Below are positions 3,103 through 41,964 of a stretch of DNA of 64,000 nt, piece by piece. Numbering within the stretch: the stretch's first letter is position 1; each line of letters starts with the position of its first letter. The DNA is from Marsupella aquatica (taxonomy: Eukaryota > Plantae > Marchantiophyta), in contig OZ316893.1 in NCBI GenBank assembly GCA_973895155.1, forward strand, positions 16,894,645 through 16,958,644. Reading direction: 5' to 3'. The notes under the pieces were generated by a model. The model worked only from the letters and a program-made list of their open reading frames with translations. It was not told the origin of the DNA and ran no database searches. The position numbers and the translations under genes are program-made.

Positions 3103-3490
3103 ACACCGTTGGTTAAAATGACGATAATACATTTTTTGTCATTTATCACCGTTGTCCAAAATGATGCAAATAGATTTTTGGTCATTTCAGTCATTGTCCA
3201 GAGTGACTATAATGTTGCTAAACACTGATTTATCATTGTTGTTATTAATTGTGTCATTTAAGACATGTGTCTAAATTGACCATTTAGGGAAATTGGGTCA
3301 TTTTGGTCGCATCAGTCATTATAGACATTATACAAAATGACGAAAAAATTAACATTTTGTCATTTCAGTCTATTGGTCATTGTGGACAGTCATTCCCCCG
3401 TCATTCTTTTTGTGTCATTAAAACTTTTGGTCATTTATTCATCTCTGTCATTGGGTGATTGGTCATAAAGGGCCCTGTTTTCTTCTAGTT

Positions 3491-13478: not shown

Positions 13479-14049
13479 CACTACTACATATTTGGCCTTT
13501 TTGCGAAGGCAATTTAGTCGCGCTGAAACGCCATGCGAGACACTGTCCATTGCTCGCTTTGCAATTGATCACTCATCTCAATTAGCAATAATAATCGCAT
13601 CGCAAACCCAATTTGCGATGCAGAACCCGTCTCAAATACTTGCGATGCTTACTTAATCGCAAACATGTTGCAATATCATCTCCATTCGGCCGGGTTTGCA
13701 AACCATTTGCCATTGCAACTATTCTGCGATCCTAATACCCTCAACACTTTTGCGAGTCATCGGCCCTCACTCAGACTTTTGTAAGACTTATTTTATCGCA
13801 AGTCTGCGAACATGAATGAATGGCAACTATGTGAATAGATTAATATCGCAATATCATGCCGACTTAGGCAACAATATTTGCGATGAAATATGGTTTGCAA
13901 ATTTATGATGCAAGTTGATTCGCAAGATTGCGAGGATGTGGGAATGGACAAGTTGCGAATATTATTTTATTGGAAACATTTAGCGAAGGTATTGCAAAGG
14001 AATCCTGTTCGCAAAAATGGTTCGCAAAATTAATAAGGGACGTTGAAGG

Positions 14050-15079: not shown

Positions 15080-15662
15080 AATCCAATGATAGGAATTGGC
15101 ATCACTATATATCCGCATAATATACATATCCCTCATTCTTGGTCCACATCCTCATCAGTTGGGGACACAACCATAACATCAGGCCTTTCCCCGATAATAG
15201 AACAAGATCGTGGCACATACGTGATGACAAGTGACCACTTCTCTGGGTTTGGGGGGTATGGAATATAGAAACATTGCTCCACATGGCTTGGAAATATAAA
15301 TGGCTCTGATGTTTGCCAGTGCGATGGCTGGAAACTAGTGGCAGACGTCTTGAGTCGTGTAAATCCACACTCATCTTGAACCACAATGAGATTGTTACTT
15401 GCAAGGTTCACTTTCATCTTGAACCACAATGGGATTGTTACCTGCAAGGTTCACTTTGAACCACTTGCACTTGAAGATATACTCTTCAAACTTTGACTGT
15501 GCATCATATGATACCACTAGGATCTCCTCTATTTTTCCATAATATGGCACAACATCTCGAATAATATTTCTGTCGTGATGACTGCTGCAAGAATCTTGAG
15601 AGAATTGTCCTTGAACTCCACAATCAAATGTATGACCCCTCTTCTCATCAAGGGAAGAAACC
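15080..15662 (-). pseudogene. Last exon of CACTA B TnpD (DUF4216-like region)
   Basis: VSSLDEKRGHTFDCGV...IVVQDECGFTRL...EPFIFPSHVEQCFY is homologous to exon 3 of the CACTA C TnpD. It is disrupted by a 43-bp tandem duplication near 15372-15457. Confidence 0.85.
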
Positions 15663-16929
15663 CCACTAGTAGAAACCGGGGCAATTTAGACCATACCTTA
15701 TAGGACTAAGCCCACTAAGTCCTTTTTCCATACTTGAAATGACTCGCACCCATTGCACCGGTTTTGTTGAAGACTACAAAAGACTATTAGTGTTTTATGG
15801 TTCACTAAAAGACTATGAGAAGTAACCTTGCTACTTTGTGAACGGTGAATAGTCTAGCACATCATGGGTAATGTTCACTTATGTTGAGGAGGGGTAATTC
15901 TGTAAAGAGGGAGATAGCAAGGGGCATAACTCAATAAATGGCCTTATTTGTGACAAAAAAGGTTTTGGAGTGAGGTTCATGGAGGGTGGACTACGGAGGG
16001 ATCGATTACTAACTCCATCAATAAAAGGCCGAGATGCACAAAGGTAGATTTGTACCGGTCTCAAGGGGGTGTGGGTTTAGGGTTAGGGGGTTGTCCAGGC
16101 GAAGAACACTCGATTGAAATAGTGACGCAATGGTTTAGGGTAAAGGAACATGTTTAGGGACCCTAACTTGTTTGCTGCCTTGGGAGGATCTTGAGAGCCT
16201 GAGCTTGCAAGCAGCATGCACTCTAAAAATGGCCCTTGGCATTGCAAAGATAGTCTGGCCACAGTCGAGTTGTGAAGACGTTTAGGGGGTTTATATGTCA
16301 AGGCTAGGGGGTGGCTGGGTTTTCACTAAAGGGGGTTTAGGGGGGTTTGATGTCAAGGGTCGGGGGTTGCATGTTAAGGGGATGGGGGTTTAGGAACCAT
16401 TGGATCGTTGGCATCATGTCCATTGACATCATGTTCCCCATCATGTCCATTGACATCATATATGTCGGGAAAGATAATTGACAAATTATTCATGAGGGTA
16501 GGCAATTTGGACAATGTTCACTTGTGTTCAGGAGGGGTAATTGCATAAATTAAGAGGGTGATGACAAGGGGCATCACTCATTAAATGGCCTTATTTGTGA
16601 CCAAAAGAGGTTTGGTTTAATGAAGTTCGATCACCACAGATATTTGCTAAGGCCAAAGTATTTGTTTAGCGACACTACACTAAGTTGTCACTCACAACAC
16701 TTGAGTGAATGGAGGGGGTTTATGGAGGGTCAGGATAATCTTGCCGTTACCATGTCGGCAACACCAGTGACTTTGGTAAGGGTATCCCAAGCTAGGGGCC
16801 TGTACCGCTTGCAGTACCGTTTGGACACCCGAGTCGCGCGACCGTTGGAAGGGAACAAGCCGGTTATGCAACTTTGCTTACACTTAGCAGGTTGTTGATG
16901 TGTTTAGGGATCCCGCCACATTCCCAACT

Positions 16930-17150
16930 TGCGGAGCAAGGTTTATTGTGTTCTCTTGGTGGGATCGGGAGTTTAGGGATTGGAGCAAGGTTTTATCGTG
17001 TTCTCTCGATGGGATTGGGAGCTTAGGGATCGGAGCAAGGTTTTCCGTGTAATCTTGGTGGGAACGTCTCTACAGTGAGGTTTAGTGTTCCCATTTTCTT
17101 GTGGTCGGCTCTGTGGAATCCGAGAAGAGGGATCGGGAGTTTAGGGATGC
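16930..17150. repeat. Short tandem repeat GGAGCAAGGTTT...GGGATCGGGAGTTTAGGGAT (~3 copies plus partial)
   Basis: Units visible at ~16933, 16982 and 17032. Confidence 0.75.
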
Positions 17151-20100
17151 TGCAATGACCGGCTCTCGAAGGGTGAGGTGAGACAACCAATTCAACGCCC
17201 TTTTGCTGCACCCTTAAGCTGTTGAGCTGCCATTGAGCTGGTGAAGCTGCATGCGGGTTGCATCTGTTCTACGGGCGCACTATCTGCCTGGTTTATGGAT
17301 TGTGGACTTTGTGGGGAGCGACAATCGGTAACAACGTGAAGGCCATCAGAGGCTGGGCAAAGCAGTTTAGGGTGCTGTGGTCGAGGAGGAGCTCACCACA
17401 AATTGGGGAGAAGACGCGGGTGACGAGCTGGGGGCGGGGAGGAGCTGCGGTCAGGGAGGATACAGACCGTCTACAGAACGACTGGCAGTCGGAGCGGCGC
17501 AGGAGCTTAGAGTGGGCCAACGCCAGCTGAATACAAGCCAGGAGTTGCATAAGGTGAGAGTCCAAGTTTTGTGTTGCTTTAGTGTTCGAGCAGCGTGCTG
17601 CCATTTCAGCCACAGTGCACCGCCTTTGAAGCTCCCATTGTCAGGGCTGGTAAGACATCACGGCTACATTGCTTTTCTTTGTTGTCCTCTGTCTTTTTGT
17701 GGGGACAACCTACTTGATTTGAGCTGCGCAAATCGTCATAAGTTAAGGCATGCGTCATGCCATCTGGATAGTGTGCCACCGAACTGTGGGAGGATGAGCA
17801 ACGCGTGGCTGTAAGCAGGTATTCTGTCAGCACAGGCGAGACTTCATTGTTAAAATCCTATTGCCTGCAATGTGTCTTGTAATGTGTTTTTCCTCATTCA
17901 ATCAGGAGCTGAGAAGGGTATTGTTAGGCTTCAATTACTCTGTGTTTTTCTCCAGCTCCATGGTACAGTTTGTGCTTTGTCTGGCGCCCATGCTCCGTCG
18001 ATCGTAGAGCTAGGTCAACCGAGCTTTGAAGAGGGAGGCTGTGGGAGCTCCTTACTGTGCTGCAGCTGCTCTTCAATCAACGGTGTAGAGATTGTAGCTA
18101 CGATCAGTGTTTGCGGAGCTGCCAGCCGGGTGCTTCGATAGTAGAGAAGAGCAGCCACAGTGATTCAGTCCTTCTCCTACGTGCAACCAAGGACCCCCTG
18201 TGCATCGTAAAGTGTGACCTCGGAGCTGAGCTGCGCACTGTCTCTATTACATGCCTTGTTGTTCTCTATTACATGCCTTGTTCTCCCGTCCACTATTTCC
18301 TGTGATTTTCTTTCTTCTAGAAGAGAATGGTGATTTCTTCTTCAATCAAACAAAACCCCACCCAACCACCACCCAAGAACGTGGGGTGCGCGCTTCTCAA
18401 TCCTCCTCAAACTGGCCCCAAGTCTGCTGAAACCCAATATATTACCCACCGGCACCAAGGGTCCAGTCCCAACCCGTCTTTCGCTTGCCACCCTCCTCAC
18501 TCTCTCGCGCATCTATCTCCCGATATTTCACGCGCAGCCGAGCCCACCAAAAGCTCTCTCCCTACAATCCCTCCTAAATCAACTTTCTCGTTTCCTGCTG
18601 CTGCTGATGTATGTTTGTTCTCCCCTATTTTTGTTTACTGATTGGTCTCTCCACACTTCCTGCTTGACATTACTGTTTTGCTCCTCCTGGATCCAAACAT
18701 GCCTTGTGCCCCGTGCTCCAACCTGCATCCTTTTCTTTACTGAGGGGGGGACCACAGCCTCCAGCCATACCTTGTGGCAGGCCTGGTCAAGACGGTGGTC
18801 GGTAGCTCGTTTTTGCTTTTTTCTCTTTTGTTTCCCAAGCTTCTGGGCGAGGGCATTACCATTCTGGATTCTCCGCGAGGCGCCACTAGCTTTTTTTCTC
18901 GGTTGCCCGTGTGCCTGCCTTCTTAGTTTTGTTTTTTCCTCAAGTGACCGGGCCATCGCTGTATGCAGATTTTTCTTGTTGTATTCATGTACAATATTTT
19001 ATTGTTCTATCTAGGTTGTGGCAAGCCAACAAACTGTTGACAACCAACATGGAATAACAACTATGCAGTGCAATGGCAGAGGACACTGTCCAATACAGGA
19101 ATGACATGGTTATGTTTTCAATTCCCTGCTTGGATGAGGCGTGGTGTTGCTTGTAATCATGTATTTCTTCACACTAGAAAAGCAGTCTGTCAGATGAGGT
19201 TGTCGGGATTGTCTGTGGGTCAGTCATCTTACGGACACCTAGCAACGTCAAATGAATGGCGGAAACGGGCCATGTTGTCATTTTGAAATTTGTCTTTCCT
19301 TTTGCCATGCTACCCAATCATTTTGTTAGTCCATGAGTCATAGATTCATAGATTCTATGTTTTGTGCTTTGTCTAGAATGCTATGGCGCCCATGCTACAA
19401 TTTGTGGTTTTTGTCTAAGCACAAATCCTCTCTGTGCCTGGTCTCTGTGTACCGTCATTTGGATTGATTGTGCAGACGTTTCCTCTTCTCCCAGTCCTTG
19501 TCATCCACCAGCCAAAGCACATTGGATTGTTTTCAAAGGAGGGCTGTGTAGTTCGGAGGGTTTGATCTATGCAGCGGATTTGAGCAGATTGGCGGTTGTT
19601 AGTTTCTTCTTGTAAAACCTGTCTGTCTTTTCTGCTTTTGGCCATGCTCCTTCACTTGTTGCTGCAAGCTCAATGTGCTTCAGCTATGGCAATATTCACT
19701 TACCCTGTCCCAACGGCACTGCCATGAGCTGTAGGACAGCCAACAGAAGCAGATTGTATCAATTGCATGTAAGTCAGGGTATTTTATGTATTGCGGAACA
19801 ACTGTCCAAGTATGCTGCAATGGTCCATCTTGCGGAGCTGAATGAGCCAATTTCATTTTCCCTGTGCACTTCTATTTCTCAGAGAATTCCCTGGTCATGC
19901 TCATTTCCCCCAGAGTTAGAAAACAAAGAAGAAGAGCTGACTAATTGTAATTCCAATCCATATCCTGATCGGTCAAGGATTGTTCACTACATTGGCCTTG
20001 TCATTGGCCGAGGTCACCAAATTTTGCTTGGTTTCATTCCTGTGGAGCACTGCTGTGATGGATTTGTCGTAGCATTCTGCAAACTCTCACGGTTTGCTTA

Positions 20101-20469
20101 TGGCCATTATTTGCAATTTGCTGCTACTAATATGTCTTCTTCTGAGCAGCATACACCAGAAGTAAGCAATAGTGGAGGTTTAACTGCACATCAACACATC
20201 TAGTGAACTACCTCTCTGCTGCTCACTGGAGGGTGAGACTTTCACTCTTTCTGGATATTGTAGTTTGTAAGCAAGTTGATTAGGAGTGTTTCATGCTATG
20301 TTTACACTGTGACCCCTAGCTGGAACCAATGGAATGACACAGTGAGTGGGAACTGATAATTTAAGGTTGGTTGCTGTTGGTGAGGCAAGTACAGCTCCTG
20401 CTCACCTTGCTGATCGAAGGTGCTTATCAGAGGACGTGAACACACGACATCTCCACAAAAGCAACACTT

Positions 20470-20919
20470 ATGGTGAGGACCCGCAACGCTGAACATGTGC
20501 GGCTTGCACGCAAGGCAGAGATGTTGCGCCTTGAGTATGTCAAACTTGGGATCCTTCCAGCCCAGTCTGCATGGTACTTTGAGTACCCAGTTGTTGCCAG
20601 GAACAACTACAGCCGGCCTGTACCTGCTTCTCCACCCTTCCCAACATCCTTGGTATTTCTGTCTCTTGTACATGACCCGCCACAAATTAGGACCCAAGGG
20701 TGTGTGCACAGTTGCCAATATGACTGTCCTGCCTGTAGGGCTTCTGGCCTAGAGTTGGATGACCGTTCTCTTGGATGTCGGTTTTTTCACAGAGCACAAT
20801 GTATCATCTGGAACCACTCGCCATCCTGCAGTGTGCCTGGCGATGTCACTTGTCCTGCCCTCCCAGACCCCACCACCGGTCACTTTGGTGTCTACACATG
20901 TTTGGATCACACGCTCTAG
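20470..20919 (+). CDS. Cys/His-rich hypothetical protein, possibly a degenerate zinc finger; CACTA C cargo
   Basis: ATG-initiated 149-aa ORF containing CVHSCQYDCPAC...GCRFFHRAQC. Same strand as the other cargo ORFs; no family recognised. Confidence 0.35.
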   Translation: MVRTRNAEHVRLARKAEMLRLEYVKLGILPAQSAWYFEYPVVARNNYSRPVPASPPFPTSLVFLSLVHDPPQIRTQGCVHSCQYDCPACRASGLELDDRSLGCRFFHRAQCIIWNHSPSCSVPGDVTCPALPDPTTGHFGVYTCLDHTL

Positions 20920-21588
20920 AGGACCACTTGTCACACCACATGCACAAACTAGAGACCATTGACCTATAACTTAACACTTTGACTTGAACAGAGAGGATAT
21001 TTACTTAAGATTTTGAATTATGACCAATTTTGGGTCCAGGGTTTAGGGTCAACAGTACATAACTTATCCTATTATGGCTGCACTAAGTACAATATCCTAA
21101 TTTAAGAGGCTAGCACGCTCACTTAAAAGTCTCCTTTCAAAGACTGGAATTAATGGGCCATGTGATAACCTGGAAAAAGTGATTTATGCCTAACTTATTT
21201 GTCTCATTCACTATCATAGCCTATTTAGGATGTATAAATTACAACCCTGATCACACTGCTTGATACCAATCCTGTTCAAAAAATGCCTGTTTTACATGTC
21301 ACGACTGTTATATGTGATTCAAATGCATTAAATCTTGTTGCAGATCTCCTTTGGTGAATCATAGCCACAAAATTGAGGTGTAGGTGGAGCTATTGTACGA
21401 GGGGATCAGTTTTTAGTGTGGGCTCAACAAACCAAAAAGTATGTCTACTCTGCACATGTGTGTGAACATTTCATTGCAGTAGCAATTGCCACTCTAGTCT
21501 ATATGCTACACTGTACTTTTTGTACACTGCACTAAATTGTATTGTCCGTGCACTCTGCTAAATTGTACTATCTGTCTCATGCGTAGGC

Positions 21589-22255
21589 ATGGCACGCCCT
21601 AAAATCCGAGCCAAGAAGCGGGGGACAGAGGTGAGCAACACAGGTGTAGTTGGGCCAGATGGTAGTAACTTCTCCGCAAGTCAGATTTTCCAGAAGGCAG
21701 CTCATTGTTGTGCCATTTGTGACGATGGTGGTGGCTTAGCCTTGCATGAGGCATTTCCACCTCAACCCGAAGTCTGACCTTGCTGCAGAAAACAACTGTC
21801 CAGGGGTGGGCCTCCCGTCAGCACACCAGGGAGGCTGGATGTGCACTGATTGTTTGGAGAAGCAGGCTAAGTGTGCACAGTGTGGGAAGTTGGGGTCTTA
21901 TGAGGGCTCTGTTGATGCTCCACCACTTGTTAGGAAATGCCCTGACAGATATTGTGTGAGGTTCTTTTGTTTTTCATGTTTGCCCGATCTTGCCACAACT
22001 TGCCCACTTCATAAGTGCAAGGCATGTGGTCAGCACGATGAAGATTTCTGGGTGGACATAGTCCACTGTGTTAGGTGTCCCACCATGTGGCACTTTCATT
22101 GTTTGAAGGAGCGTCAAGCAGAAGGCTATGCTTGTGACAGACACATCTATGATCACTCTGCACATGGTGTTGATCGATGGATCTTCTATTGTCATCGCCA
22201 TGCCATAGATCCTACTTTGCACACTCCCATGAGAGATCACATTTCTTGGCTTTGA
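21589..22255 (+). pseudogene. EDM2-like multi-PHD-finger module with a small frameshifting deletion at ~21742
   Basis: CAICDDGG.L/CMRHFH...C.DC.EKQAKCAQCGKLGS...C..FF...CPLHKCKACG...CVRCPTMWHFHCL...IFYCHRHAIDPTLHTPMRDHI. This is colinear with the EDM2 PHD region as I recall it (CAICDNGG, CPLHKC, IYCQEHEIDEELLTPVRDHVKF). An acceptor-like GCGTAG lies just before the ATG. Confidence 0.8.
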
Positions 22256-22819
22256 ACCTGAATAATATACATGCATAGTGCACCTGATGTGGATACCTTG
22301 GAGATTGCAGACATTCCAATTTTGAGAAGAAGGACCTCTGTAGGAGAGGATGCTTAGGCAACAAGTACCCTAAGTTCATTACTTGTTCCTGGGTACATGC
22401 CTTCAAAAACTGCCCTTAAGCCTTCTAGGAACTTTTTTAACTCTGCAATCATTTTGATCACGACTTACATGACACTGCTTAAATTAAATCAGGACTTCTC
22501 ATTATGAGCATATAAGTTACAAGGCTATTTAATTTGCGAGAATTCCCTTAAAGTGTACCAACATTTTGTATTCTCATTGAATGTCTGCCCATTTACAACA
22601 TCTGTATGTGGCATCACAAAACAATTGCACTTGTCACCTTCAATATTGTGAAGGCACATATTCAAACTATGAGGTGCATGCTTGCAGGTGTCTAGTACGT
22701 TTGTCCCAATATTTCTCCCGTTTGGAATCGGAGCAGAGACTCACCAGACGACTGGACTGGACCAAGTTATAAACGCAGCATTTTAAGGGCCCTTCGATTA
22801 TCAGGTGAACGCATTATCT

Positions 22820-22977
22820 TCCGGTCTGCAGTGATTAGGTGGCCCGTGTGTACATGGCCTCTAGGAAACGTACAAAGGTTGACCACCCGCCTCTGTTGTC
22901 CGGTCTGCAGTGATTAGGTGGCCCGTGTGTACATGGCCTCTAGGAAACGTACAAAGGTTGACCACCCGCCTCTGTTG
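22820..22977 (+). repeat. Exact 79-bp tandem duplication spanning the BRCT gene start
   Basis: TCCGGTCTGCAG...CCTCTGTTG occurs at 22820-22898 and again at 22899-22977. Confidence 0.95.
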
Positions 22978-23781
22978 GCTGGAATCAAAGCCATTTTGAT
23001 TCCTGGCCACTATGGGTTCACCCAAGTGAGTTGGCCAATCGTACAAAAACGATTCTCAGAGTTCCATGGGACTGAAGTCAAGGACATCACTCCACAGACT
23101 ACACATGTTGTTGCGGGGACATGGCTGGATGTGATGAACAAGTGGTCATGGTCCTTCATTGATTCTGCCATTACCAACCAAGGTCTAAAAGTAGTTGAAG
23201 TCTCTTGGCTGACCGATTCTGTTAAACATAGGTGTGTACAGAGTACTGAGCAATATGAGTTGTGGGAGAGTGAGGAGGCCACTGCAGAGGCTTTGGCTGA
23301 AAAGGAAGCCTATGAAGCAGCGGCAGAGAAACCCAACTTTGCTTCTGTCCAATATGGACCTGTTGTCAACATAGGACACCATCCTATGCGTGCAGATGCT
23401 ATATTGAATGAGCATGGCAAGGAGAGAAATACCATTATGAAGGGGTTCAGTGTGGTATTTGCAGAAGAAGGAATTGGGGAGACTAAGTGCAGACTGTACA
23501 AGTCTATAGTTGTTGAGCTAGGTGGGACAGTGGAGGAGAGTCTAACAGAAACCTCCACTCATGTTGTAGGTCTGTCATACATGAAAATATGCAGAAAATT
23601 CTTTAAGACAACAGTGCGTGATTTTGTCATGAACAACAATCTTTGGGTGCTTTCCCCTGATTGGCTTCTGGAATCAGCAGCTAGAGGGAAGCGACAGAAT
23701 GCTTGGGACTTTGATATTTTTGAGGCCTGGCCCTCCAAGATTCAGTGGAGATGTATGCTTAGCAAAGGTGGGAGAGAGTGA
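22933..23781 (+). CDS. Tandem BRCT-domain protein (282 aa); CACTA C cargo
   Basis: Two repeats with BRCT hallmarks: (G)G-x-V...THVV...VV/VL-x3-W-L-x-D/E-S (TTHVVAG...VVEVSWLTDS; LGGTVEESLTETSTHVVG...VLSPDWLLES). The frame is intact and AATAAA lies at ~23825. Confidence 0.85.
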   Translation: MASRKRTKVDHPPLLAGIKAILIPGHYGFTQVSWPIVQKRFSEFHGTEVKDITPQTTHVVAGTWLDVMNKWSWSFIDSAITNQGLKVVEVSWLTDSVKHRCVQSTEQYELWESEEATAEALAEKEAYEAAAEKPNFASVQYGPVVNIGHHPMRADAILNEHGKERNTIMKGFSVVFAEEGIGETKCRLYKSIVVELGGTVEESLTETSTHVVGLSYMKICRKFFKTTVRDFVMNNNLWVLSPDWLLESAARGKRQNAWDFDIFEAWPSKIQWRCMLSKGGRE

Positions 23782-23957
23782 GGAGTAGGAGTCCCTCATA
23801 TTTTTGTATAAAACACAATTTTGTAATAAATGTGATCCTTGAACTAACTCATCTTGTCATGGTTGGTCGCAGTTGAAGTGATTGTTGTTTCCTGCTGCGT
23901 GGGGTGTGACTGTGAATCTACTTGCTGGGCTCTGTTTGGCTGAAGACTTTGGTGGGT

Positions 23958-24491
23958 ATGCTGCCTCTTCCAGACCGTCAGGCCCTATGTAGGGTCCTCC
24001 TACGGGTTGCATTGTGCATGGCTACTGCTTGGGCTTACTTGTGTGGATTGGTAACCAGACAGAGTGTAGCTCCATCCGAGATAATGCCTGCAGACCTTGG
24101 ATGTGTTGTGAATGCTGTGGTGAATGAGGATGCACAGTCGGAAGAGGACATTTACTTTTCAGCAGATGAGTTAGACAAGCACGATGCTGTAGGTGGTTCC
24201 TTGTTGCCTGATTTGGCAGATGATATAGTTCTTACACATGTCTGGCCGAGGGTTCTTGTGGTGTCTGGCGCACAAGATATCTGCAAATATAGACTAATTA
24301 GTACCCAGTGGAGGGACTTGGTAGCAACATGTGCACCATGGAGGGCACTGCTGCCACTGCTTGTAGGCACGGATCGAAGACCACCATGGCATGAGCAGGG
24401 TTTAGACCTTGATGACTTAATGTACATGCCTGAGTACCTCAGGGCTGAGTGGCATCGACAACAGGATTGGTATCCGTATTTGATGTGGTAG
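23958..24491 (+). CDS. F-box-like protein with a hydrophobic N-terminus; CACTA C cargo
   Basis: SLLPDLADDIVLTHVWPRV...CKYRLISTQWRDLV matches the plant F-box pattern L-P-x-L-x-D-D...R-x-V/I-S-x-x-W-R. Confidence 0.6.
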   Translation: MLPLPDRQALCRVLLRVALCMATAWAYLCGLVTRQSVAPSEIMPADLGCVVNAVVNEDAQSEEDIYFSADELDKHDAVGGSLLPDLADDIVLTHVWPRVLVVSGAQDICKYRLISTQWRDLVATCAPWRALLPLLVGTDRRPPWHEQGLDLDDLMYMPEYLRAEWHRQQDWYPYLMW

Positions 24492-24817
24492 TAAGATGAG
24501 GACATCTCACACCGGTCTCGCACCTGGCACCTGTGTCTATGACTATACATGATTGGACTCTGATATGGTCATGGATGTACGTGCAGAGGCAGTACATGTG
24601 AGGACAGCGGAGGAGTTGACACCCTCAAACATTTAGGAATTTTGTCTCATTCACTTGAGAATAGGTACATGACTCAGGCACCTATATTTTTTGTTTTTTT
24701 GTTTTTTTGGAACGTTACGTATTTTGGCAAGTACAGTCGGGGGTGAAATCCTTAACAGGAAGTGTATTTTTCACTTGCATAATAAAATGACAGGGTGCTG
24801 AGTGCGTGTGTATAGTG

Positions 24818-27800
24818 ATGGCTCCAAGGTTGCCTCTTCACAACCCATTTAGGATTAGGCATCATGATTCTAAATTGTGGATGCGTGAACAAGCCCGGGC
24901 CGCCCAAGGTAGGAGTAGGAGGATGAGATGCCCATGCACACAGTGCCAAGGATTCAAGTCGTTGAGTTTGAACACTGTGCACCTTCACCTGCTGCGGCAT
25001 GAAAGGCACCCTCGGTGGAGGGTTTGGAATGTACCAGCAGAAGAAGACTCCTCTGATGAAGAGTGGAGAACTGACTTTGTGGATTCTAATACAGCTAGGC
25101 GTAGAGACTACGTAGAGCAGGACATAGACTGTGCAGAGGATGGTCCTGGGGTCCAACATGAGAACGTGGATGACCAAGATGGAGATGCAGAGGCAGTCAC
25201 TGAGGACGGTGGGATGGATGTCCCAAGAATGGTTCAAGAGATTTTTGAAGACCTTGATGCTTTTTACGACACAGTGGAATCAGAAGAGGACAATGAACCG
25301 CAGCCACACATTGGCGACGGCCAAGCTCAACCTGACTTTGACATTGGGGAAGGTGCAGCAGAGAGGGAGTGGGTGTTTGGGGGCCCAAAACACATCAAAG
25401 AAGCTTGCATTCCTATCTACGAGGGGTCGAACTGCTCCAAGCTGGGTTTTGTCGTGTTGTTGTTGAACATCTATGGCAATCACAATGTTCCCAATATATT
25501 TGTGACAGAGTTGTTGACCTTCCTGCGCCGAAATGTGTTACCAGATGGTAATTCAATTCCAAAAAATATGTACGAGGCTAGGAAATTGATGTCTAACCTT
25601 GGGCTGAACTATGTGTCTATTGACGCATGCCCTGATGGGTGTGTTCTCTTTCGCAAAGAGCATGCAGATAAATTGACATGCCCTCATTGTGGTAAGCACA
25701 GGTACAAGAATGTAGGGAAATGTACACACCCTGCCAAGGTTCTTCGTCATTTTCCTCTCATTCCTAGACTACAACGTCTGTTTAGATGCCCTGCCATTTC
25801 CAAGCTGATGACATGGACTCCTGATAACAAGAGCAGTGATGGCCTGCAGCGTCACATTGGAGATTCCAACCATTGGAAATTTGTTGATGAGAGGTGGCCA
25901 CAGTTTGCTGCAGAGAAGCGGAACTTTCGATTTGGTCTATCACTGGATGGAGTAAACCCATTTGGAGACAAAAACAACCGTTATTCATGTTGGCCGGTTA
26001 CGCTGCTAAATTACAACCTTCCCCCATGGATGACTACAAAGAGGTTTTTTGTCATGATGGTGCTGTTAATCCCTGGACCAGCTTCTGTGACCGAGCAATT
26101 CATAGATATCATGTTGGCTCCAGCAGTGGAAGAGTGGAAGACTTTGTGGATAGAAGGGGTGTTAACCCATGATGTTCTGAAGGGGCTTCTTCGACCCAGC
26201 CCCTTTAGACTGCATGCAATTTGTTTGCTGGATATAGCAGATTACCCAGGCCATGGCATCATATCTGGACGAGTGACAAAGGGCTATGTGGGGTGCACAC
26301 CATGTGGGAAAAATGTGACAAGTGAGTGGTCGCATGCCCTGCACAGTATGAAATTTCAGGGGCATAGAAGGTATCTGCCTGTTGATCATCCTTACAGGCA
26401 CACACGGTCTCAAATTGCACACTTCAACAACAAAACAGAGCTTCGTGGCCCACCACAGAGGGTCACCAGAGAGCAAGTCCTGAGGTGGGCAGCCAGGAAG
26501 GCTGATTGGGACAAGAGAAGTGCCACTGATCGAGAACCTGAGGATCCAGTGGTGAAACACGGTGTGAAAAGACAGACCTTGATGGACTTGGAGTTGGAGT
26601 ACTGGAGGGTAATGTACTTAGCCTCCAGCCCCTGTATGATTGCAATTTTAGATTGGAGCAATGGTGGATTGATGTTGGTTACAATCCTCTTATGTGGTTA
26701 ATTAGTGTTTCTGTTGTTGAATTCTTTGCTTTGTGGAGTGCAGGAATTCGAGCCCAGCAAACACAATGTGGACGTCATGCACATTGAGAAAAATATTTGT
26801 GAGAGCTTGCTGAAGTTCTTGTCGGGTGAGAAAGATACAGGAGCAGTTCGAGCTGATATGCAACAGAAGGGGATTCGCCCTCACCTTTGGTTGAAGCCCC
26901 ATGCAAGCAATCCCAATGTACTTCTCAAGTTCCAAGCTCCCTATGTGTGCACACAGGATGAATGGAAGACATTCTTGTATAGATTGAGCTGTCTGAAAGT
27001 GCCCTTTGGCTATGCTGGTGCCTTCAAGAAGCATATTACAAAGAATAAACTTGGCAGTATGAAAACACATGACTACCATGTGTTGATGCAGCACATTCTG
27101 CCCCTATGCCTCAGAGGTCTCATGCAGAAACCAGTCCGTAATGTCATTCTTCGACTGTGCAATGTATTTGGCCGTATATGTGTGAAAGTGTGGGATCCCC
27201 AAGGATTGGAGCAGTTGAAGCAGGATGCTGCTTATGTCCTCTGTGACTTGGAGATATACTTCCCCCCTGCTTTCTTTGATGTTATGACTCATCTCCTAAT
27301 CCATGTGGTAGAAGAGCTAGGGCAGTATGGGCCAGTCAGTACCAGATGGATGTACCCTATGGAGCGATACATGAAGTTGTTGAAAGGTCATGTGAGAACA
27401 TACTACAGGCCAGAGGCTTCCATGGCATTGGGGTACATTAAGGATGAGACGTTGGGATTCCTAACAGAGTACATGGCTGGGTCTGGTGAAGCTATGACAA
27501 GAGTTTGGAAATCTGGTGAAGATGATGGAGTGAGTGGCGAGGTTGTTGAAGGTGTGGGACGTGCTGTTCAGCTGCCTGTTGCGATTCGAGACAAGGCTCA
27601 TTCATATGTGCTGGCAAACACAGAGCCTATGCAACCATGGTGGAGGTGAGTGATTGAATTGACTTGCCTTTGTTGTGATGCTTCTTGTCAGTTCCAAGGG
27701 TGATCTTAGGTTGTCATGTGTTGTTTAGACCTAACTATGCCTGTACCTCATATTGCAGGGAATATGATATGCAAAAAGCTGCACACTCTGGGCAGCAGGA

Positions 27801-28518
27801 TCCCTTCCCACAGTTCGAGCAGTGGATTTGGGTGACAATTCGAGAGCATAGTAGACATCACCCAGATATGGAGAAGGATTTGTATCTTCTATCTGTGCCA
27901 CCACGATTGTCTATTCTGACCTACAAACGGATGAGAGCTTATGGAAATCATTATCGAGTGAGGGATGAGCAGGGTGACCATTGTGTATCATATGATTGTG
28001 GTTTGATTTTTGTGTTTGAGCAGAGAACCTCTGAAGAACAGAGGGGGTGGATGAAGATGGGTTACGTGGGGGAGTTGACCGACATTTGGGTGTTGAATTA
28101 TGGTAACACAAGTGTCCCAGTGATATTGATGAAGGGATCATGGGTGAAATCAGAGTGGCAGAGACCAAGGGCCACCATGAAGCGTGATCATGATGGGTTC
28201 TTGTTGGCCAATTTTAGGTCCAGAGTACCAGAATGGTCTGAGCCTTTTGTTTTCCCTAGCCAAGTTGAACAGGCTTTCTTTGCAGATGTGGAGGAGTCAC
28301 ATGGCTGGAGGGTGGTATGCCATAGCCAAGCACGGAACAGGCGGATGGATGGAAGTAAAGTAGAGTTCAGTTTGGATGACCATGCTGCATTCGAGCATCC
28401 TAGTCATGAGACTGTACTTCCAACTCGGGCAGGGACTGACTACATCCCCTTAACATTGAGAGAGACATATGATGAACCTGGGCAAATGGAATATGATGAG
28501 GTTGATGATTTGCAATAG
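24818..28518 (+). CDS. CACTA TnpD/Tnp2 transposase, 3 exons (24818-26608, 26744-27645, 27759-28518), 1150 aa, apparently intact
   Basis: Contains the CPCxxC...HLLRH N-terminal zinc motif, IDACPDGC, LSLDGVNPF, YSCWPV..NYNLPPW, DVMHIEKN, MKTHDYHVLMQ and RWMYPMERYM. GT-AG introns join the three ORFs in frame (3453 nt). Confidence 0.95.
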
Positions 28519-28695
28519 GCAACAGCTGGCGATTGGCAAGTATGAGGTTGAGGATGACTACCTGCACAGAGTCACATAACGGGAATTGCTGCCTGGAATG
28601 ATGTTTAGGATAGTTGGATATGCATGAAATTGATTGATACTTTGAATTTAGTGTGCTGATTCTCCCTGTTTGGTTGTGGGTGCTGTGCAGAAGCT

Positions 28696-31600
28696 ATGGG
28701 GGAAGAGGGTGATGACATGGAGACAGACATGGGGCTTGGAGAGTGGGGTGAAGAGGAAAGATTGGATATGGATGGAGACCCAGATGCAGGGGGCTCACAG
28801 AAAAATGCACCTGTGCAAGATGCACAGGGCCCTCATCAAGTCCCAGGTAGGTGGGCAGTTAGAGAGAAATCACATAATCCATACCCTAGAAGGAGCCAGA
28901 GTTATTGGCAAGGGACGCCTGATAATTATGATGATGACTATGATGGAGCAGAAGATGGATGGGATGAATATGAACACCCAGAGCGTGGTAGAGACGGGTA
29001 CAGAGGGCAATGGAAAGGTGAGGAGGATGATTGGACAAGTAAGTGCCTTGTGCTAGTGATTTTGTGATGGTAGTAGAGATTTAGCTCAATATGCACTTAT
29101 CTGATGTGTAGCTAGGGCAAAGAGTTTATCTTACAGGTCCATGAGTGTGGCATGTACCTGTTGGTATGCAGACTCTGATTGGGACAATCACGAAAACAAC
29201 AAAGGCCATCCACGTTCAGATAGGAGGCAATCATTCACAGGCGGGAGAAACGCCCCTAATTCATCAAGACAAAGCAATAGGACAGGTGGTCCAGAACCAT
29301 CTATGCGCCAAGGGAGAGGTAACTTGGTCATTGCAGAATTGCTCTGAAGTCCACTGTATATTTGGCAGCGGGATTTATGATTCATACTTACCTAATGTAA
29401 GTGACTGTAAATGGATCCTGTAAATGTGCAGGGACTCCACGGAGGTTTGGACAATGCAATCCAGGCCGTGGGGGGAGATCAGGCCGTGGAGGGACCCCAG
29501 GCCGTGGGGGGACACCAGGCCGTGGAGGGACACCTAGTAGCGCTTCAGGGAGTACCAAGGCAGGAGACAGTAACAAATTTGGTAAAGTAGAAGTGAATTC
29601 CGAAGGTTGGATAACTCCCACATGTGATGGTAAGAACCGTTGGCATTCTGACCTAAGAGGAGAAGTATTGCGTTGGTTAGATTTGAGCATTACAGAGTTT
29701 AGGAGTCAGAACAAAGCTGATTGGGCTGCTATCTGCAAGGACATTCTTGAATGGTGGGAGTATGTTGGTAATGATGGTAAGGGCCCAGTTGAAGATTGCA
29801 TATCAAATTATGCAATGAGGATTTTGAAACAAGAGAGGCATAGGTTGAAAAGGATGTGGATAGACAATGGTTCTAACAGGAGAATGCCACCACCCCCATC
29901 ATTGGAACTGGATCAATGGACACGGTTAATCAAAGGGTTCATGTCGGAGGCTGGACAGAGCAAGAGTGAACTGATGTCAAATGCTCGAGGCAAAGTGAAA
30001 CACCTTCACAGGCTGGGAGAGGAAGTTATGCTCCAGTGAAAGAACAATTGGTAAGGCAGTGACATGCCTGATAGTAAGCCTCAAACTTATCATCTTGCTA
30101 CCATTATTACATTTTCATTGACAATCAACACTTGGTTTCATTCATATGTATGTTGATGTGGACTGCAGAAGAAATTGACAGGTGAAGAACCATCAGCACA
30201 AGAAGTGAGAGAGGAGTTCATGAAACAAAGGAGTGAGGTGACAAGTGTAACTTCCAAACAGGTGATTATGTTGTAATTCTGTATGTTCTGTGACTATTTG
30301 GCCTTGAGCATCAGAAAGAAATGTAGTAGGAAGTAAGCAACCAGTTCTTGGGGACAGTTATCTGAGATATGTAAGCTGTGTTTTGACAGGGAACTGTTAC
30401 AACTCTCACAGAGATGTGTGAACGGTTGAAGTCATTAGAGTGTGGACTCCCTCGAGTGGAAAGTAAATTGGCTGATCGTTTGGATATTGTGGAGGTATCT
30501 GTAGCGAACCTTCTTGCATCAGTGGAATCTAATTTCAAGCTTGTGATTGAAAAATTGGGTGGTTCCCAACCAAACAATGAGGGCAACATTGTACAAAGTG
30601 TGCCCTTGTTAACAAAAAAGGGAATTGGCAAATCTGACACAGGTATGGAAATGACACCGGCCCATTGTTCATTGTGTCCTATGTTCAAATGTTAGAAGTA
30701 AGTTTTCATGAATTGAGTGAATGGTTTGAATGCAGGAAGAGTGGAGGCAGAGAAGGACCCTGTAATCAGTAAGCAGAAGGGCAAGAAGGTTGCTGAGACA
30801 GGTAACCTGCTATGATCCAGTACATTACATTTGAAAAGTGCATGGAGTTTTGTGAAGCTTAAGCCGGTTGGAGGTAATCTTTTCTGTAAGAACTGGTTGG
30901 ATGAACTGGGATCTGAAGTGACATCATGATTGATGTATCAGGTGATTCAAAGAGCAATAATGAAGAAGATGTGCCCAGTGCCTCAGTGACCATAGCCAAG
31001 GAGGTATCAGGTAAGCTGATGCTTTAAATTCCTCTATATGAATGTTGAGCAACAATTCAGTGGTTAATAGATTCAACCTGAATATTGTGGTGTGTTTATT
31101 GATCAACAGAAGCAGACATGGAGCATATGGCAATGGCAAAGAAGGGGAAGAAGGCTGTTCATAATGGTAAGGAGATAGTGACAACTTTGTGGTTGGTGAC
31201 ATGTACATTTAGCACATGTGATGAGTGATTGACTTATGTTGGACATGACACTGAATTGTAGTTGATGCAGAGTTGACAGACTCTCAACCAAGTGGGAGTA
31301 GGGTGAAGCGACGTCGAAACTTGGGAGCAACATTGGATGCAAGTAAGATTGTAGATGCTTCAATTGAAGCAAGTACAATGTTGGCAGATACTGAGATGAT
31401 GTCGCAGGGAAATCCTGCTACACAATCAGAAGTGTCAAATATGGATGCAGATTCTTTGAAGAAGAGTGTAGCCAATTCTCGATCACCAGCACAAAACACT
31501 TGTGCCAAAGTCATGACTCGCAACCAAGGTATGAATAATGTCATGTATAAGCCACCCAGGAAAGCCAAGAAAAACAGCCAGGGTAAGGTGGAGGTGATAG

Positions 31601-31866
31601 CCACAGCAGAGCCAGTCCATAATCTTCTATCATGGGAGGATGACTCGCAGGTATGTGTGGGTACAGGCATTTTGCGACCGGATCATGCAAAATTCCATGG
31701 CAAAGTGGTCCCGGATGACCATGTAGTAGTGTTGTTGACTACAATGATTGTATCTGATTGTAATTTGCCATTTCCGAATAGAGACGATGATCCACCTCAG
31801 GAAATAATTGCAGATGCAGTAGGATCTCTTGTGCTCTGGCCATCAGAGTGTGTTAGTCTGCAGTGA
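28696..31866 (+). CDS. CACTA TnpA-like multi-exon gene (Ptta/En/Spm-like core, Tnp1-like C-terminus), probable 1-bp frameshift near 30015
   Basis: Many small GT-AG exons. The core reads QWTRLIKGFMSEAGQSKSELMSNARGKVKHLHRLG, with RGSYAP in a shifted frame. The C-terminus reads FHGKVVPDDHVVV...LPFP...DAVGSLVLWP. Confidence 0.75.
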
Positions 31867-32293
31867 CTGAATGCAAGTGTAGATAGCATCATGTGAATTG
31901 TGTCACATTTTGACATTGCCTTGGAAAGATCCAAGAAATATCTGTACCAATTTTTCCATTTGGTAAAGAGGATGAAGGAGACGTTGTGTGTGACATTGAT
32001 ATTTCTGAATTCTGTATGTATGAAACAAGTGATTGATGTCAAACTATGGCTCTATGGTGATTGTCTATGATACTTGAATCTATTTTATCATTTCAGTATT
32101 AGTGTGTATGGTATAGAGGAATACTTTGTGACCTTCTTTGTAGTCTATGAAATTTGAATCTATGAATTCATATTAGTGTACATGGTATAGAAGATGGCTT
32201 TCTGAAACTATGTATTCTAATGTTAACATGATGAATGGTGAACTTATAGAGTGAGTTCATTCCAAGTACACAATAAAACATGAATGCAATATG

Positions 32294-35244
32294 TGTTGTA
32301 ACTCATACTTGAGTTAAGTCTACCTTTGGGATAACTACCTATGTAACTACCCTAACTACTTAGGCCGTAGCCACATGTACATATTCTACCAAGAGTAAAG
32401 ATGGAACCAACTCTTTGTCTCATTTCTCCCACAACACGTTATCAGCACGAGCCTAAGACTGGCTGAATTTTTTTTTAGGCCATGACTGATTCACTCTAAG
32501 ACGAAGAAAGAAGGGAAAAGACGTGATTCGAATGTGCCAAAGTTTTTTTTGCGAGAGCTGCTTGAAGCGCTGCACGAGCAATTTTTCTTTGGAAGAAAGG
32601 CCAAGGAAGAATTGATCCCAGCTATGGTGAATTGAATATCAAGGCGCCATCTTATTCGGTGCACGCTTTTCAAGTCAGTATAGCAGTAAGGCAATAGCAA
32701 CAGTCAGTCAGAGCCAATGTTGTTGACGCGTTCACAAATCTGGAAACGAGCCAGCGATTGGAACTCCAGCCATTTCGAGGAGTCGGAAGTTGGTGGCCAA
32801 GGTGTTTTCTCACTCCCTGGCGAGCAAGACCCTCACACCAACTACATCTTTTATTGATAAGATTTCTAGCGAGCACCAGCTCACTGACGGCTGGTCGTGA
32901 GCGCACAACAGATTGGAGTACGACAACCTACTCTATTTCCTGTGTTTGCTTCCAGTTCTACTCGAGTCTACCGCTGGAGGCATTCGAAATGGACGAAGCA
33001 GTAACAGGATGTTGTGATTTCTTTCCCGACACTACGCTTTCCCGACACTATGCTGACAGAAAAGCAGGACAAACATGGGGAAATTAAACCCGTTGGTCGC
33101 ATCACTGGAAAACGAAAGAAGGATTTGGAGCAATCGCGTAAGAAGTGCAAAAAGAAGCAAGTGAAGAAAGTCGCGACTTACAGACCATAGAAAGTAGCGA
33201 CCTCCACTTCAGGCAGCGAGATCATCACACAAGCAAACCGATCCAAGGCGCAGATCACAGCCTCAATTCCATAAGGAACTCGTAAGGATAGCAGGAGATA
33301 AGGAAATTTTTCTTAGAAGATTCGAAGAGAACTCAAGAAGAAAGCAGAACAGAACGGAAGTCTATCCCCAACCGAGGATCACAAGATTACATTCTTCGTT
33401 AGTCATTGATGAGTCTTTTGCCCTTCGAGAGTAACCGATCTTGAAAAGCAGCATTCCCCTCCAGGGTGAAAAGGATAAGAAGAGCAAGACGACAGCAATA
33501 GAGAGAAGACGATCGAAAAGCGTAGGCAGGTCCCGTGAATTACCCTCATTCGCCGTTGCCCCTTCTGGAGAGCAACGATGGGTTTGTTCGAGAGCAGCTG
33601 GTACCCTGAAGGAAGATGATAAAGAAGAGGAAACCGAGCTACTGGATGCTCTAGTTTCTAAGCCGTACTGCGATGATGACGGCCTTTCCTACCGGCATTC
33701 TCACCAGACTTTACTATGTTGATGGAGACACCAAGAGCTTGATCGACTTTACACATCCATGACAATGGAGATTGAAGGAAGATTTCACATTTAGGGAGCA
33801 CGAACAAAAGACCCTCGGAGAAAAGAGGATAAGAGCACGAAGGGAACGCGCGCAGCAAAGAACAAATCTCGCAACAAAAATGCTGAAACGTCGAGAAAAC
33901 GTCGAGAACATACCGCTAAGTGCAAACCCTCCTTAATTGCAAAACCCGTCAAATAGATTTGCGTATACAAAGAACAATGTGCACTGAACCAGGGAAACAC
34001 ACATACTAAGAACGGGGACGAAATGGCATTAAAATGAAAGATATCTATTGGGAATATTACCATATAAGAATTGCCATTCACAAATTCAGGGGGAGAATTG
34101 TTTTTCCCAACGTGCCTACTGCACTTAAAAGTTAAGCTCCGTGCCTACTACACATGGAAGCCAATGAGTGCCTACTGCACATGGAAGTAAATGACAAATT
34201 GAGGGGGAGACCTCAAGTAAGACTTGACATCAAGCAATGTAACCCATGGGATGTGCCTATTGCACAAGTGCCTTTCGCACCAATGAATACCTAAAAATGG
34301 AACTCTATTCCATGCATATGGCAAATCATGAAATCTAAGGAATTTTTATAAATGATTGAATATGGTGTTAACACAATCACTTACCAATACTTGATGAGGT
34401 ATACTGGATATTAAAGTACCATATGATAATATGAGGTACAGTACCAGGTCATAAGGTACCATAAGGTGAGACATGGCATGGTAAGGCACCATAAGAGATG
34501 GTGCGCCATACCCCAATATGATAACCCTACGTTGTGGATATGGTACGTGATGTGGTGCAAATAGGTTATGCCCACACCAAATCTAGGGTTGGACACCCAA
34601 TCCAATTCCAAGGCCATGGATTACACCATATCATCTTCGTTTTGTACTAATACTTTACTTTGTCATGGCATGTAATCGGTGACCATCAAGGAGTCTCCAT
34701 TTCCAGATTGGAAGGAGACACGAGAAACAATCAACCAAGGAAGATCTTCAACAAGCCTATAGTGTTGACAAACACCTTAAGAGACTTTGTAGAAATTACA
34801 CATACACTATATTCTTAAACCCAATTATGTTACACCCATGGGGATGGTAATACTCTTTCCTCCCACAAAGAAAGTAGGGGAGGTTTTAATGAGGTTACAT
34901 CCCCCACTTACACTTTACCATGCAACATGAATTATAAGACATCTATTAGGAGAAGCTTGACATTCATTTATAGTAGACTTGAGATGGCTACACCATTTAT
35001 AAAATAGGCTAGACATAAACAAAACCTATTGTATACCACTGAATATACCCAAAGTAGACTCTTGATTGTAACATTTCAACCCCAATGTTACAAAGGGGGA
35101 GTGTTGTAACTCATACTTGAGTTAAGTCTACCTTTGGGATAACTACCTATGTAACTACCCTAACTACTTAGGCCGTAGCCACATGTACATATTCTACCAA
35201 GAGTAAAGATGGAACCAACTCTTTGTCTCATTTCTCCCACAACA
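32294..35244 (+). mobile_element. Non-autonomous Bianca-type LTR element (2951 bp) with identical 143-bp LTRs
   Basis: LTRs 32294-32436 and 35102-35244 (TGTTG...CAACA) are identical by eye. TSD ATATG is on both sides, the PBS is CGTTATCAGCACGA, and the PPT is AAAGGGGGAG. No gag/pol is present internally. Confidence 0.95.
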
Positions 35245-35817
35245 ATATGTTATTTGTGCACAAGAGTGGGTTCATTCCAAGTAGTATAGTGGGGTCTTCA
35301 TCACTCATATCCAGTTGACATGAAAGACTTATACATACCCCACAAAGTATATTTAAAGACTACCCTCCATAACCTTTTTAGTCGTTCCCAACGACTCATC
35401 ATCGCAGCCCATAAAAGACTAAAAACGACTCACCAAAGCTACCCACACAAAGACTAAAATAGACTGAAAATCCAGTCTATTAAACGACTTATAAACCAGT
35501 TCTATAAAGGACTCAGTTGATTATAGTAACAAAACATACGACTCGCAGTCCTATAAAGGACTAGAGTCCTTCCCAGTCATTTCCAAGTCCTATACGGTAC
35601 TGAATAGTCGTTTAATGGGGTCTAAATACCCCCCGGTTTCTACTAGTGCCCTAAATTCAATGAAATCATATGGACATGTTACAAAAAAATATATGCAAAC
35701 ATATTACAATTTTAACATAATACACCACAAATATATTTCCAGTATACATAACTAATATCTAATGTTTGACAAAAATATTAAGAGAGGATGGTTAGTAAGG
35801 TATGTAGGATCAATCAC

Positions 35818-41790: not shown

Positions 41791-41964
41791 TTGCCGTAGC
41801 GCCCTTACTTTTGGCCTTGGCTAGGGTTCCATAGTCACCCTTGATTGTTTATATTTTCCTTTTTTTGTTATTATACTAATGTGTTTTCAGGGTACACTCC
41901 CGGTTTTACCACTTTAACTGGCCTAGTGATTCCTGGCTAGGCATCACAACAGGCAACCACAGGG

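What the first reader, a model, noticed from the sequence alone, without database searches (positions are those of the whole stretch)
22933..23781. Intact tandem BRCT protein resembling the DNA polymerase lambda-type BRCT
Seen: two BRCT repeats joined by an E/A-rich linker, in an open 282-aa frame with a KRTK NLS-like start. The second repeat (FSVVFAEEGIGETKCRLYKSIVVELGGTVEE...THVV...WLLES) recalls the plant Pol lambda N-terminal BRCT from memory. Established: X-family polymerase BRCTs engage the Ku/XRCC4/LigIV NHEJ machinery, and cut-and-paste transposition leaves breaks that the host repairs. Inference: the protein may recruit or titrate repair factors.
Basis: partly seen in the sequence, partly recalled or inferred. 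Interest (0 to 1): 0.7.

Follow-up and report, generated by a model that had tools for sequence, protein, structure and literature searches.

The report
Transposon-borne tandem BRCT repair-domain gene
A 20,000-base cut-and-paste transposon of a plant carries an intact extra gene made of two copies of a DNA-repair protein-binding domain, likely taken long ago from DNA polymerase lambda, which may let the transposon interfere with how the host mends the breaks it makes.

Summary
22933-23781 is an intact, intron-free 282-aa frame with two BRCT domains (Pfam, AlphaFold2, fold search) that arose by internal duplication. It lies inside a complete 20-kb CACTA transposon (15664-35648; 18-bp inverted ends, CCC target duplication), between PHD-like and F-box-like frames, upstream of the transposase. 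It belongs to an unnamed family (16 relatives among 1.84 billion cluster representatives), whose genomic context I could not see.

Pol lambda ancestry is favoured, not proven (about 0.6). A plant Pol lambda BRCT profile scores repeat 2 at 31.4 bits, above every single PDB BRCT domain including human Pol lambda (22.3). But human REV1 and a generic TopBP1-like profile tie in other tests, PARP4 is the best fold match, and the tree is unresolved.

The Ku-binding residues (human R57/L60/F61) read K185/L188/Y189 in repeat 2, but the R57/L60 pair survives in only 4 of 23 family repeats. The repair-decoy role is therefore untested inference (about 0.3). A perfect 79-bp duplication puts a 19-codon upstream frame before this copy. 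No transposon-borne BRCT gene turned up in my paper searches.

The parts
22933..23781 (+). Tandem-BRCT gene, 282 aa, no introns
22942..22956 (+). Basic N-terminal patch (aa 4-8), NLS-like; function untested
   Evidence: basic starts also in P0002, P0003 and plant Pol lambda L017, L001
22969..23271 (+). BRCT repeat 1 (aa 13-113); the more derived repeat, with family-invariant W64 and W73 in the alpha2 region
23272..23325 (+). Predicted E/A-rich helix (aa 114-131), followed by a low-confidence loop to aa 165
23428..23727 (+). BRCT repeat 2 (aa 166-265); Pol lambda-like, with K185/L188/Y189 at the places of human R57/L60/F61
22820..22977 (+). Perfect 79-bp tandem duplication; its first copy opens a 19-codon upstream frame 22854-22913 out of frame with the gene. 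Real mutation or assembly error not settled
22768..22773 (+). TATA-like site upstream of the gene; consensus match only
23825..23830 (+). AATAAA 44 bp after the stop; consensus match only
15661..15681 (+). Left CCC target-site duplication and 18-bp terminal inverted repeat of the CACTA element
35631..35651 (-). Right terminal inverted repeat and CCC target-site duplication
20470..20919 (+). Cys/His-rich 149-aa frame inside the element, no family found
21589..22255 (+). NSD-like PHD-finger cargo gene, frameshifted near 21740 in this copy
   Evidence: a loose end at 21741 in run X3
23958..24491 (+). 177-aa cargo frame with a weak F-box match (E 0.11, below cut-off)
24818..28518 (+). TnpD transposase region: Transpos_assoc, Transposase_21, DUF4218, DUF4216
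29401..31866 (+). Probable TnpA-like region; weak Transposase_24 match (E 0.046); one-base difference from all four runs at 30004
32293..35244 (.). Later LTR-type insertion with identical 144-bp ends and a 5-bp target duplication; a joint skipping it stands in runs X2 and X3

Best explanation
This is an intact, intron-free gene for two BRCT domains carried inside a 20-kb CACTA transposon; it likely descends from the N-terminal BRCT of plant DNA polymerase lambda and likely works as a catalytically empty decoy or adaptor whose second repeat would dock on the Ku site used by Pol lambda at the breaks that transposition makes. SHOWN: open frame, two BRCT folds, internal duplication, place within matched CACTA ends, an old unnamed protein family, no polymerase domain. 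INFERRED: capture from Pol lambda, probably through a spliced RNA because the host BRCT has two introns and this gene none (about 0.6); use as a regular accessory gene of the element (about 0.7); Ku docking by repeat 2 (about 0.3). If it docks, it would keep gap-filling polymerase off the donor-site break and tilt repair towards copying from the sister chromatid, which restores the element and raises copy number. Repeat 1, with its own conserved tryptophan-rich alpha2 region, would bind a second, unknown partner.
For: Element ends and target duplication; transposase domains. Two BRCT folds, Z up to 15.9. Repeat 1 vs repeat 2 profiles E 2e-18. Repeat-2 profile: best single-domain PDB hit is human Pol lambda BRCT, 33.1 bits over 92 columns; BRCA1 27-28, REV1 26.9, FCP1 16. 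Profile of 3 plant Pol lambda BRCTs scores family repeats 39.9, 36.0, 33.7 and the window's repeat 2 31.4, while the best single PDB domains reach 22-23 (MCPH1, TdT, human Pol lambda), REV1 15.7, FCP1 14.3. Nearest non-family row is a Pol lambda for 18 of 24 repeats, though Pol lambda makes 3 of 18 rows. REV1 needs a 10-residue gap in the alpha2 region, plant Pol lambda 3-4. Pol lambda BRCT has two introns (L019 vs L017). K185/L188/Y189 align with R57/L60/F61, which bind Ku (PMC12056208, passages and section 7); the same paper shows that a catalytically dead Pol lambda lowers gap filling only if it can bind Ku. Arabidopsis Pol lambda binds Lig4/XRCC4 through its BRCT and is reported to act at transposon excision sites (PMC4444747, passages citing two papers I did not read). 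Domains are better kept than the loop between P0001 and P0002 (68/100 and 67/100 against 11/33).
Against: The R57+L60-like pair is in only 2 of 10 second repeats and 2 of 13 first repeats, against 3 of 3 plant Pol lambda; the basic run before it is E-T-K here. The both-repeat profile scores human REV1 35.9 bits, level with plant Pol lambda 33.5-35.2. A profile of four TopBP1-like repeats ties on the window's repeat 2 (34.9 vs 34.4) and the Pol lambda profile wins for only 11 of 24 repeats (that control protein had been picked for likeness to P0001). Best fold match is PARP4 (Z 15.9); Pol lambda 11.1 and 10.4, Pol mu 8.9. Raw identities to Pol lambda (18-20%) overlap those to controls (14-20%). 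The tree has no starred branch joining the family to Pol lambda. The window's repeat 1 scores 3.1 bits with the Pol lambda profile. True plant orthologues score 97-118 bits, so any descent is remote. The upstream frame may damp translation of this copy. Whether the relatives lie in transposons is unknown.
Confidence: 0.3

Rival explanations
1. A kept accessory gene whose BRCT scaffold has been re-purposed: it binds a chromatin, ubiquitin or element-encoded partner, as part of an anti-silencing cassette with the PHD-like and F-box-like neighbours, and no longer touches end joining.
For: What the family conserves is W64, W73, W92 and G46, not the Ku-contact helix. Neighbours are PHD-like and weakly F-box-like; the outer CACTA carries a SET frame. 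VANC and Ulp1-bearing KIU are known transposon accessory factors against silencing (PMC13317346, passages).
Against: Repeat 2 keeps K/L/Y, and P0002 keeps K/M/Y, at the Ku-contact places. No partner is shown; being neighbours is no evidence of a shared pathway.
Confidence: 0.3
2. The domain came from another BRCT protein (REV1, TOPBP1, LIG4 or PARP4 type) and the likeness to Pol lambda is shared general BRCT character; any role would then be in damage tolerance or checkpoint signalling.
For: REV1 tie, REV1 best PDB hit of P0012 (26.6 bits), TopBP1-like profile tie, PARP4 best fold, LigIV tandem first in Foldseek.
Against: Reciprocal profile, nearest-row count 18 of 24, alpha2 length and gaps. 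The LigIV match has rmsd about 22 A and reflects the long linker; the two repeats resemble each other.
Confidence: 0.2
3. A neutral passenger: a host gene picked up by a young element and intact only because little time has passed, perhaps silenced or blocked by the upstream frame.
For: The insertion looks young (perfect 18-bp ends, identical 144-bp LTRs in the nested insert). The PHD neighbour is broken in this copy. CACTA elements commonly capture gene pieces (PMC8978399, PMC13317346, passages).
Against: Full-length tandem relatives are 17-62% identical yet keep both repeats and invariant residues, which needs long selection somewhere. No near-identical donor gene turned up (closest 62%). 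Captured pieces in those papers are mostly fragments.
Confidence: 0.2

Closest known systems
N-terminal BRCT of plant DNA polymerase lambda (L017, L006, L001) and human Pol lambda BRCT (2jw5, 9g9l)
   Same: Short basic N-terminus followed at once by a BRCT; near gap-free alignment from beta1 to beta3; long alpha2 region; K/L/Y at R57/L60/F61 in repeat 2.
   Different: No 8-kDa or polymerase domain; two repeats instead of one; 3-4 more residues in alpha2; no introns; only about 20% identity; Ku-contact residues variable in the family.
CACTA/EnSpm transposons with captured genes (Pack-CACTA; Chenopodium CACTA, PMC8978399)
   Same: CACTA ends, 3-bp target duplication, TnpD domain set, cargo upstream of the transposase.
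   Different: Cargo is a row of separate whole frames rather than short fragments; the BRCT gene is an old, duplicated, diverged family. The word BRCT does not occur in the main text of the three transposon papers searched.
Transposon accessory genes that act on the host: VANC and Ulp1-bearing KIU of Vandal (PMC13317346), SET in HarbingerS and TET in fungal elements (PMC12730594)
   Same: A DNA transposon keeping a host-derived domain as an extra gene.
   Different: Those act on DNA or histone marks; this is a DNA-repair interaction domain, and its activity is not shown.
DNA ligase IV C-terminal tandem BRCT (3ii6)
   Same: Two BRCTs apart by a long helix-bearing linker; first in Foldseek, Z 13.2 in VIA.
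   Different: rmsd 19-22 A; low sequence scores; the two repeats here are duplicates of each other; no XRCC4-binding region was recognised.
BRCA1/MDC1-type phosphopeptide-binding tandem BRCT
   Same: Two BRCT repeats in one chain.
   Different: No S/T before the beta1-alpha1 glycine in either repeat, 53-residue linker, no confident packing (pTM 0.45).

Membership tests
BRCT domain superfamily | Four-strand parallel sheet with three helical layers | tested here: met
   AlphaFold2 model and VIA Z 8-16 to many BRCTs
BRCT domain superfamily | Profile match, TH motif and alpha3 tryptophan | tested here: met
   PF00533 52.5 bits, 2 stretches; W92 and W244
CACTA/EnSpm element | CACTA...TAGTG terminal inverted repeats | tested here: met
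   18 bp perfect, 15664 and 35648
CACTA/EnSpm element | 3-bp target-site duplication | tested here: met
   CCC on both sides; the only pair with a duplication among 9 candidate pairs listed
CACTA/EnSpm element | TnpD transposase (Transposase_21 with associated domains) | tested here: met
   E 1e-59, plus DUF4218 and DUF4216
CACTA/EnSpm element | TnpA and subterminal repeats | tested here: inconclusive
   Transposase_24 E 0.046 only; short repeats at the right end, few at the left
X-family DNA polymerase (Pol lambda) | 8-kDa lyase and nucleotidyltransferase domains | tested here: not met
   Only BRCT families hit P0001 and its family members; they hit L017 and L006
Pol lambda-type BRCT (descent) | Closer to Pol lambda BRCT than to any other BRCT | tested here: inconclusive
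   For. Ties or against. Plant paralogues not available
Pol lambda-type BRCT (descent) | alpha1 Ku-contact residues R57, L60, F61 in repeat 2 | tested here: met
   K185/L188/Y189, conservative changes
Pol lambda-type BRCT (descent) | alpha1 Ku-contact residues in repeat 1 and across the family | tested here: not met
   S33/I36/V37 in repeat 1; R57+L60-like pair in 4 of 23 repeats
Pol lambda-type BRCT (descent) | Binds Ku70/80 or XRCC4-LIG4 | not testable with these tools
BRCA1-type phosphopeptide tandem BRCT | S/T-G in the beta1-alpha1 loop and packed head-to-tail repeats | tested here: not met
   E179-G180 where BRCA1 has S-G; pTM 0.45 and long loop
DNA ligase IV C-terminal tandem BRCT | Two unlike BRCTs with an XRCC4-binding linker | tested here: inconclusive
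   Architecture-level match only, rmsd about 19-22 A; repeats are mutual duplicates
Functional transposon accessory gene | Purifying selection among element-borne copies, and expression | not tested
   No copy-level variant list or RNA run was obtained; only protein-level conservation

The most novel reading that the evidence does not exclude
Plant CACTA transposons have kept a duplicated Pol lambda BRCT as their own DNA-repair modulator: it occupies the Pol X site on Ku at excision breaks, shifts repair from end joining to homologous gap repair and so raises element copy number. This would be a class of transposon accessory gene aimed at repair-pathway choice rather than at silencing.
Probability: 0.22. 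Interest if true: 0.8.

Novelty: new variant of a known kind. Interest (0 to 1): 0.5.

Why it matters
Cut-and-paste transposons gain copies only through what the host does with the break they leave. The plant accessory genes in the papers I read act on silencing. A transposon-kept Pol lambda-type BRCT would be a direct handle on repair-pathway choice and is cheap to test with a Ku-DNA gel shift. Even without that role, it is an unnamed tandem-BRCT family riding in a large multi-gene CACTA element, which matters for annotating such genomes, where it could be mistaken for a host repair gene.

Tried and rejected
No whole genome was held, so copies could not be counted or aligned. Single-sequence AlphaFold2 was useless (pLDDT 31.6). 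Word-index searches found only P0002 and P0014 at near length and three weak multi-BRCT proteins among longer ones; they missed plant Pol lambda, so their blanks are weak. A metagenome scan for relatives' loci found 0 of 115 pattern matches confirmed, so the relatives' context is unknown; viral contigs were not scanned. Foldseek against viral models gave only generic BRCT ligase hits. The protein atlas gave generic BRCT clusters under 0.9 and nothing usable for the 149-aa frame. No RNA holder listed: no evidence either way on expression. Depth is summed over contigs and the runs were found with this stretch, so I do not use it as copy number; the BRCT and transposase bins having similar depth (about 1800-2500 in X1, against 260-450 in the nested LTR insert) is only a hint of a multi-copy family. 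The variant tables were cut to the 40 best rows, none inside the gene, so no dN/dS and no verdict on the 79-bp duplication. No complex prediction was obtained. The tree left out near-duplicates P0008, P0011, P0019, P0020, P0022 and the 62-aa fragment P0017; its bootstrap had not settled. The profile A7 used 3 of the 19 loci I read as plant Pol lambda (of 32 returned; 13 read as chance). Cluster members were looked up for 10 of 17 hits. Rejected: chance frame; a Pol X pseudogene; a BRCA1-type phospho-reader; FCP1/CTDP1 as donor (14-20 bits throughout; plant CPL not tested). Earlier scan notes: nothing by sequence, place or the words BRCT/Pol lambda.

Full report
Observation. The + strand frame 22933-23781 is open from ATG to TGA, 282 aa; none of 2000 shuffles was fully open. 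Pfam finds BRCT twice (E 6e-14). AlphaFold2 on a 15-row alignment builds two BRCT domains with good confidence, a helix at aa 114-131, and a low-confidence loop at 133-165; pTM is 0.45, so the two domains have no fixed arrangement in the model. The fold search returns BRCT chains at Z 8-16. Profiles of the two repeats align end to end at E 2e-18, so the tandem most likely arose by internal duplication.

Setting. The gene lies in a CACTA element, 15664-35648, with 18-bp perfect inverted ends and a CCC target duplication. In order it holds a Cys/His-rich frame of no known family, an NSD-like PHD gene frameshifted in this copy, the BRCT gene, a weakly F-box-like frame, the TnpD domains, a probable TnpA region and a later LTR-type insertion. 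The element has jumped into the DUF4216-like part of a second CACTA on the other strand (read from the empty-site translation), whose transposase is about 32% identical and which carries a SET frame. The host is a plant by these domains; I did not determine the lineage. The stretch 21700-24600 is held by 11 of 13 listed public runs, 4 with half or more of its words. Four runs cover all 30 bins of the element, and a joint that skips the LTR insertion stands in two of them, so other copies or alleles exist. A TATA-like site and an AATAAA flank the gene (consensus matches only). A perfect 79-bp duplication repeats the start codon and creates a 19-codon upstream frame ending 19 bases before the real ATG; it may damp translation of this copy or be an assembly error.

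Family. Among 1.84 billion representatives 17 proteins hit at E up to 0.001. Sixteen are relatives (5 whole tandems, 1 cut tandem, 10 single-repeat pieces) and one is a TopBP1-like multi-BRCT protein. Cluster look-up of 10 of them added two more whole tandems and no informative name. Whole members are 264-313 aa, 17-62% identical to P0001, carry only BRCT families, and share G46, W64, W73 and W92. Between P0001 and P0002 the domains are 67-68% identical and the loop 33%. This points to long selection on the protein, but I could not see whether the relatives lie in transposons and could not measure dN/dS.

Ancestry, for. A scan with a short recalled motif returned 32 loci, of which I read 19 as plant Pol lambda; three are spliced frames, two complete by Pfam. 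A profile of these three BRCTs scores family repeats up to 39.9 bits and the window's repeat 2 at 31.4. The same alignment gives at most 22-23 bits to any single PDB domain, human Pol lambda included (22.3), with REV1 15.7, LigIV 16, BRCA1 16.5 and FCP1 14.3. The repeat-2 profile's best single-domain PDB hit is human Pol lambda. A Pol lambda row is the nearest non-family row for 18 of 24 repeats. REV1 aligns only with a 10-residue gap. The plant Pol lambda BRCT is split by two introns, this gene by none, which suggests capture through a spliced RNA (inference).

Ancestry, against. Human REV1 scores 35.9 with the both-repeat profile, level with plant Pol lambda (33.5-35.2). A four-repeat TopBP1-like profile ties on repeat 2, and Pol lambda wins for only 11 of 24 repeats, though that control was pre-selected for likeness to P0001. 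PARP4 is the best fold match (Z 15.9 against 11.1 and 10.4). Foldseek ranks LigIV first, with rmsd about 22 A. The tree leaves Pol lambda and the second repeats in an open fork. No plant BRCT other than Pol lambda and one green-algal protein was on hand. I put Pol lambda descent at about 0.6.

Mechanism. Human Pol lambda docks helix alpha1 (R57, L60) into the Ku70/Ku80 bridge, and a catalytically dead Pol lambda lowers gap filling only when it can dock (PMC12056208; passages and section 7 read). Arabidopsis Pol lambda binds Lig4 and XRCC4 by its BRCT and is reported to act at transposon excision sites (PMC4444747; passages read, the two primary papers not read). All three plant Pol lambda keep R, I/V, W at these places; the window's repeat 2 has K185, L188, Y189 and P0002 K, M, Y; repeat 1 has S, I, V; across the family the R57+L60-like pair is in 4 of 23 repeats. 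So a Ku-site decoy is possible for this subfamily but is not what the family as a whole conserves. I commit to the decoy/adaptor reading at 0.3, level with a re-purposed scaffold at 0.3; another donor 0.2; a neutral passenger 0.2. That damping end joining would favour sister-templated restoration of the donor site rests on my own knowledge of cut-and-paste transposition, not on a call. It is not a BRCA1-type phospho-reader and not a polymerase.

Novelty. Gene capture by CACTA elements and host-derived accessory genes in transposons are known (PMC8978399, PMC13317346, PMC12730594; passages only); BRCT occurs 0 times in their main texts. Searches for CACTA+BRCT (7 papers), transposon/BRCT domain/accessory/EnSpm (20 of 38 listed), CACTA/fern/SET/PHD (5 of 6 listed), and transposable element/BRCT/Repbase (1 paper) showed no transposon-borne BRCT gene by title or abstract start. 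The library lacks most subscription journals and Repbase Reports, and I read no supplements, where such an element could be listed. Verdict: a real, unnamed tandem-BRCT cargo gene of a large CACTA element; new variant of a known kind; interest 0.5.

Noticed in passing
window 38804-39496 (-): SET-domain frame (Pfam E about 2e-6) just upstream of the transposase of the outer, minus-strand CACTA; so two CACTA families here carry different chromatin-type cargo.
   Followed up: partly
window 13479-14030: A CACTA-type end with many short subterminal repeats, possibly one end of the outer element; no matching other end was found in the window.
   Followed up: partly
window 63230-63829 (-): 200-aa frame with a weak N6/N4 DNA methylase match (E 4e-4, below cut-off).
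   Followed up: no
window 20470-20919 (+): Cys/His-rich 149-aa cargo frame with no Pfam or atlas match.
   Followed up: partly
window 21740 and 30004: This copy differs from other copies at the PHD gene (frameshift) and in the TnpA-like region (one base), so it may no longer be autonomous.
   Followed up: partly
window 32293-35244: 2.95-kb LTR-type insertion with identical 144-bp ends and no long coding frame; looks non-autonomous and recent.
   Followed up: partly
window 41140-42596: A roughly 1.4-kb imperfect inverted repeat (75-84% complementary arms).
   Followed up: no
window 1-3170: Tandem arrays with 578-bp and 83-bp units; the 578-bp unit holds a 52-bp palindrome.
   Followed up: no
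window 9073-13452, 53545-56261, 59782-60945: Degenerate Copia-type retrotransposon coding regions (RVT_2).
   Followed up: no
protein P0023 (family member, no locus): Both of its repeats look like repeat 1 (tryptophan pattern), hinting at a second, separate duplication in the family.
   Followed up: no
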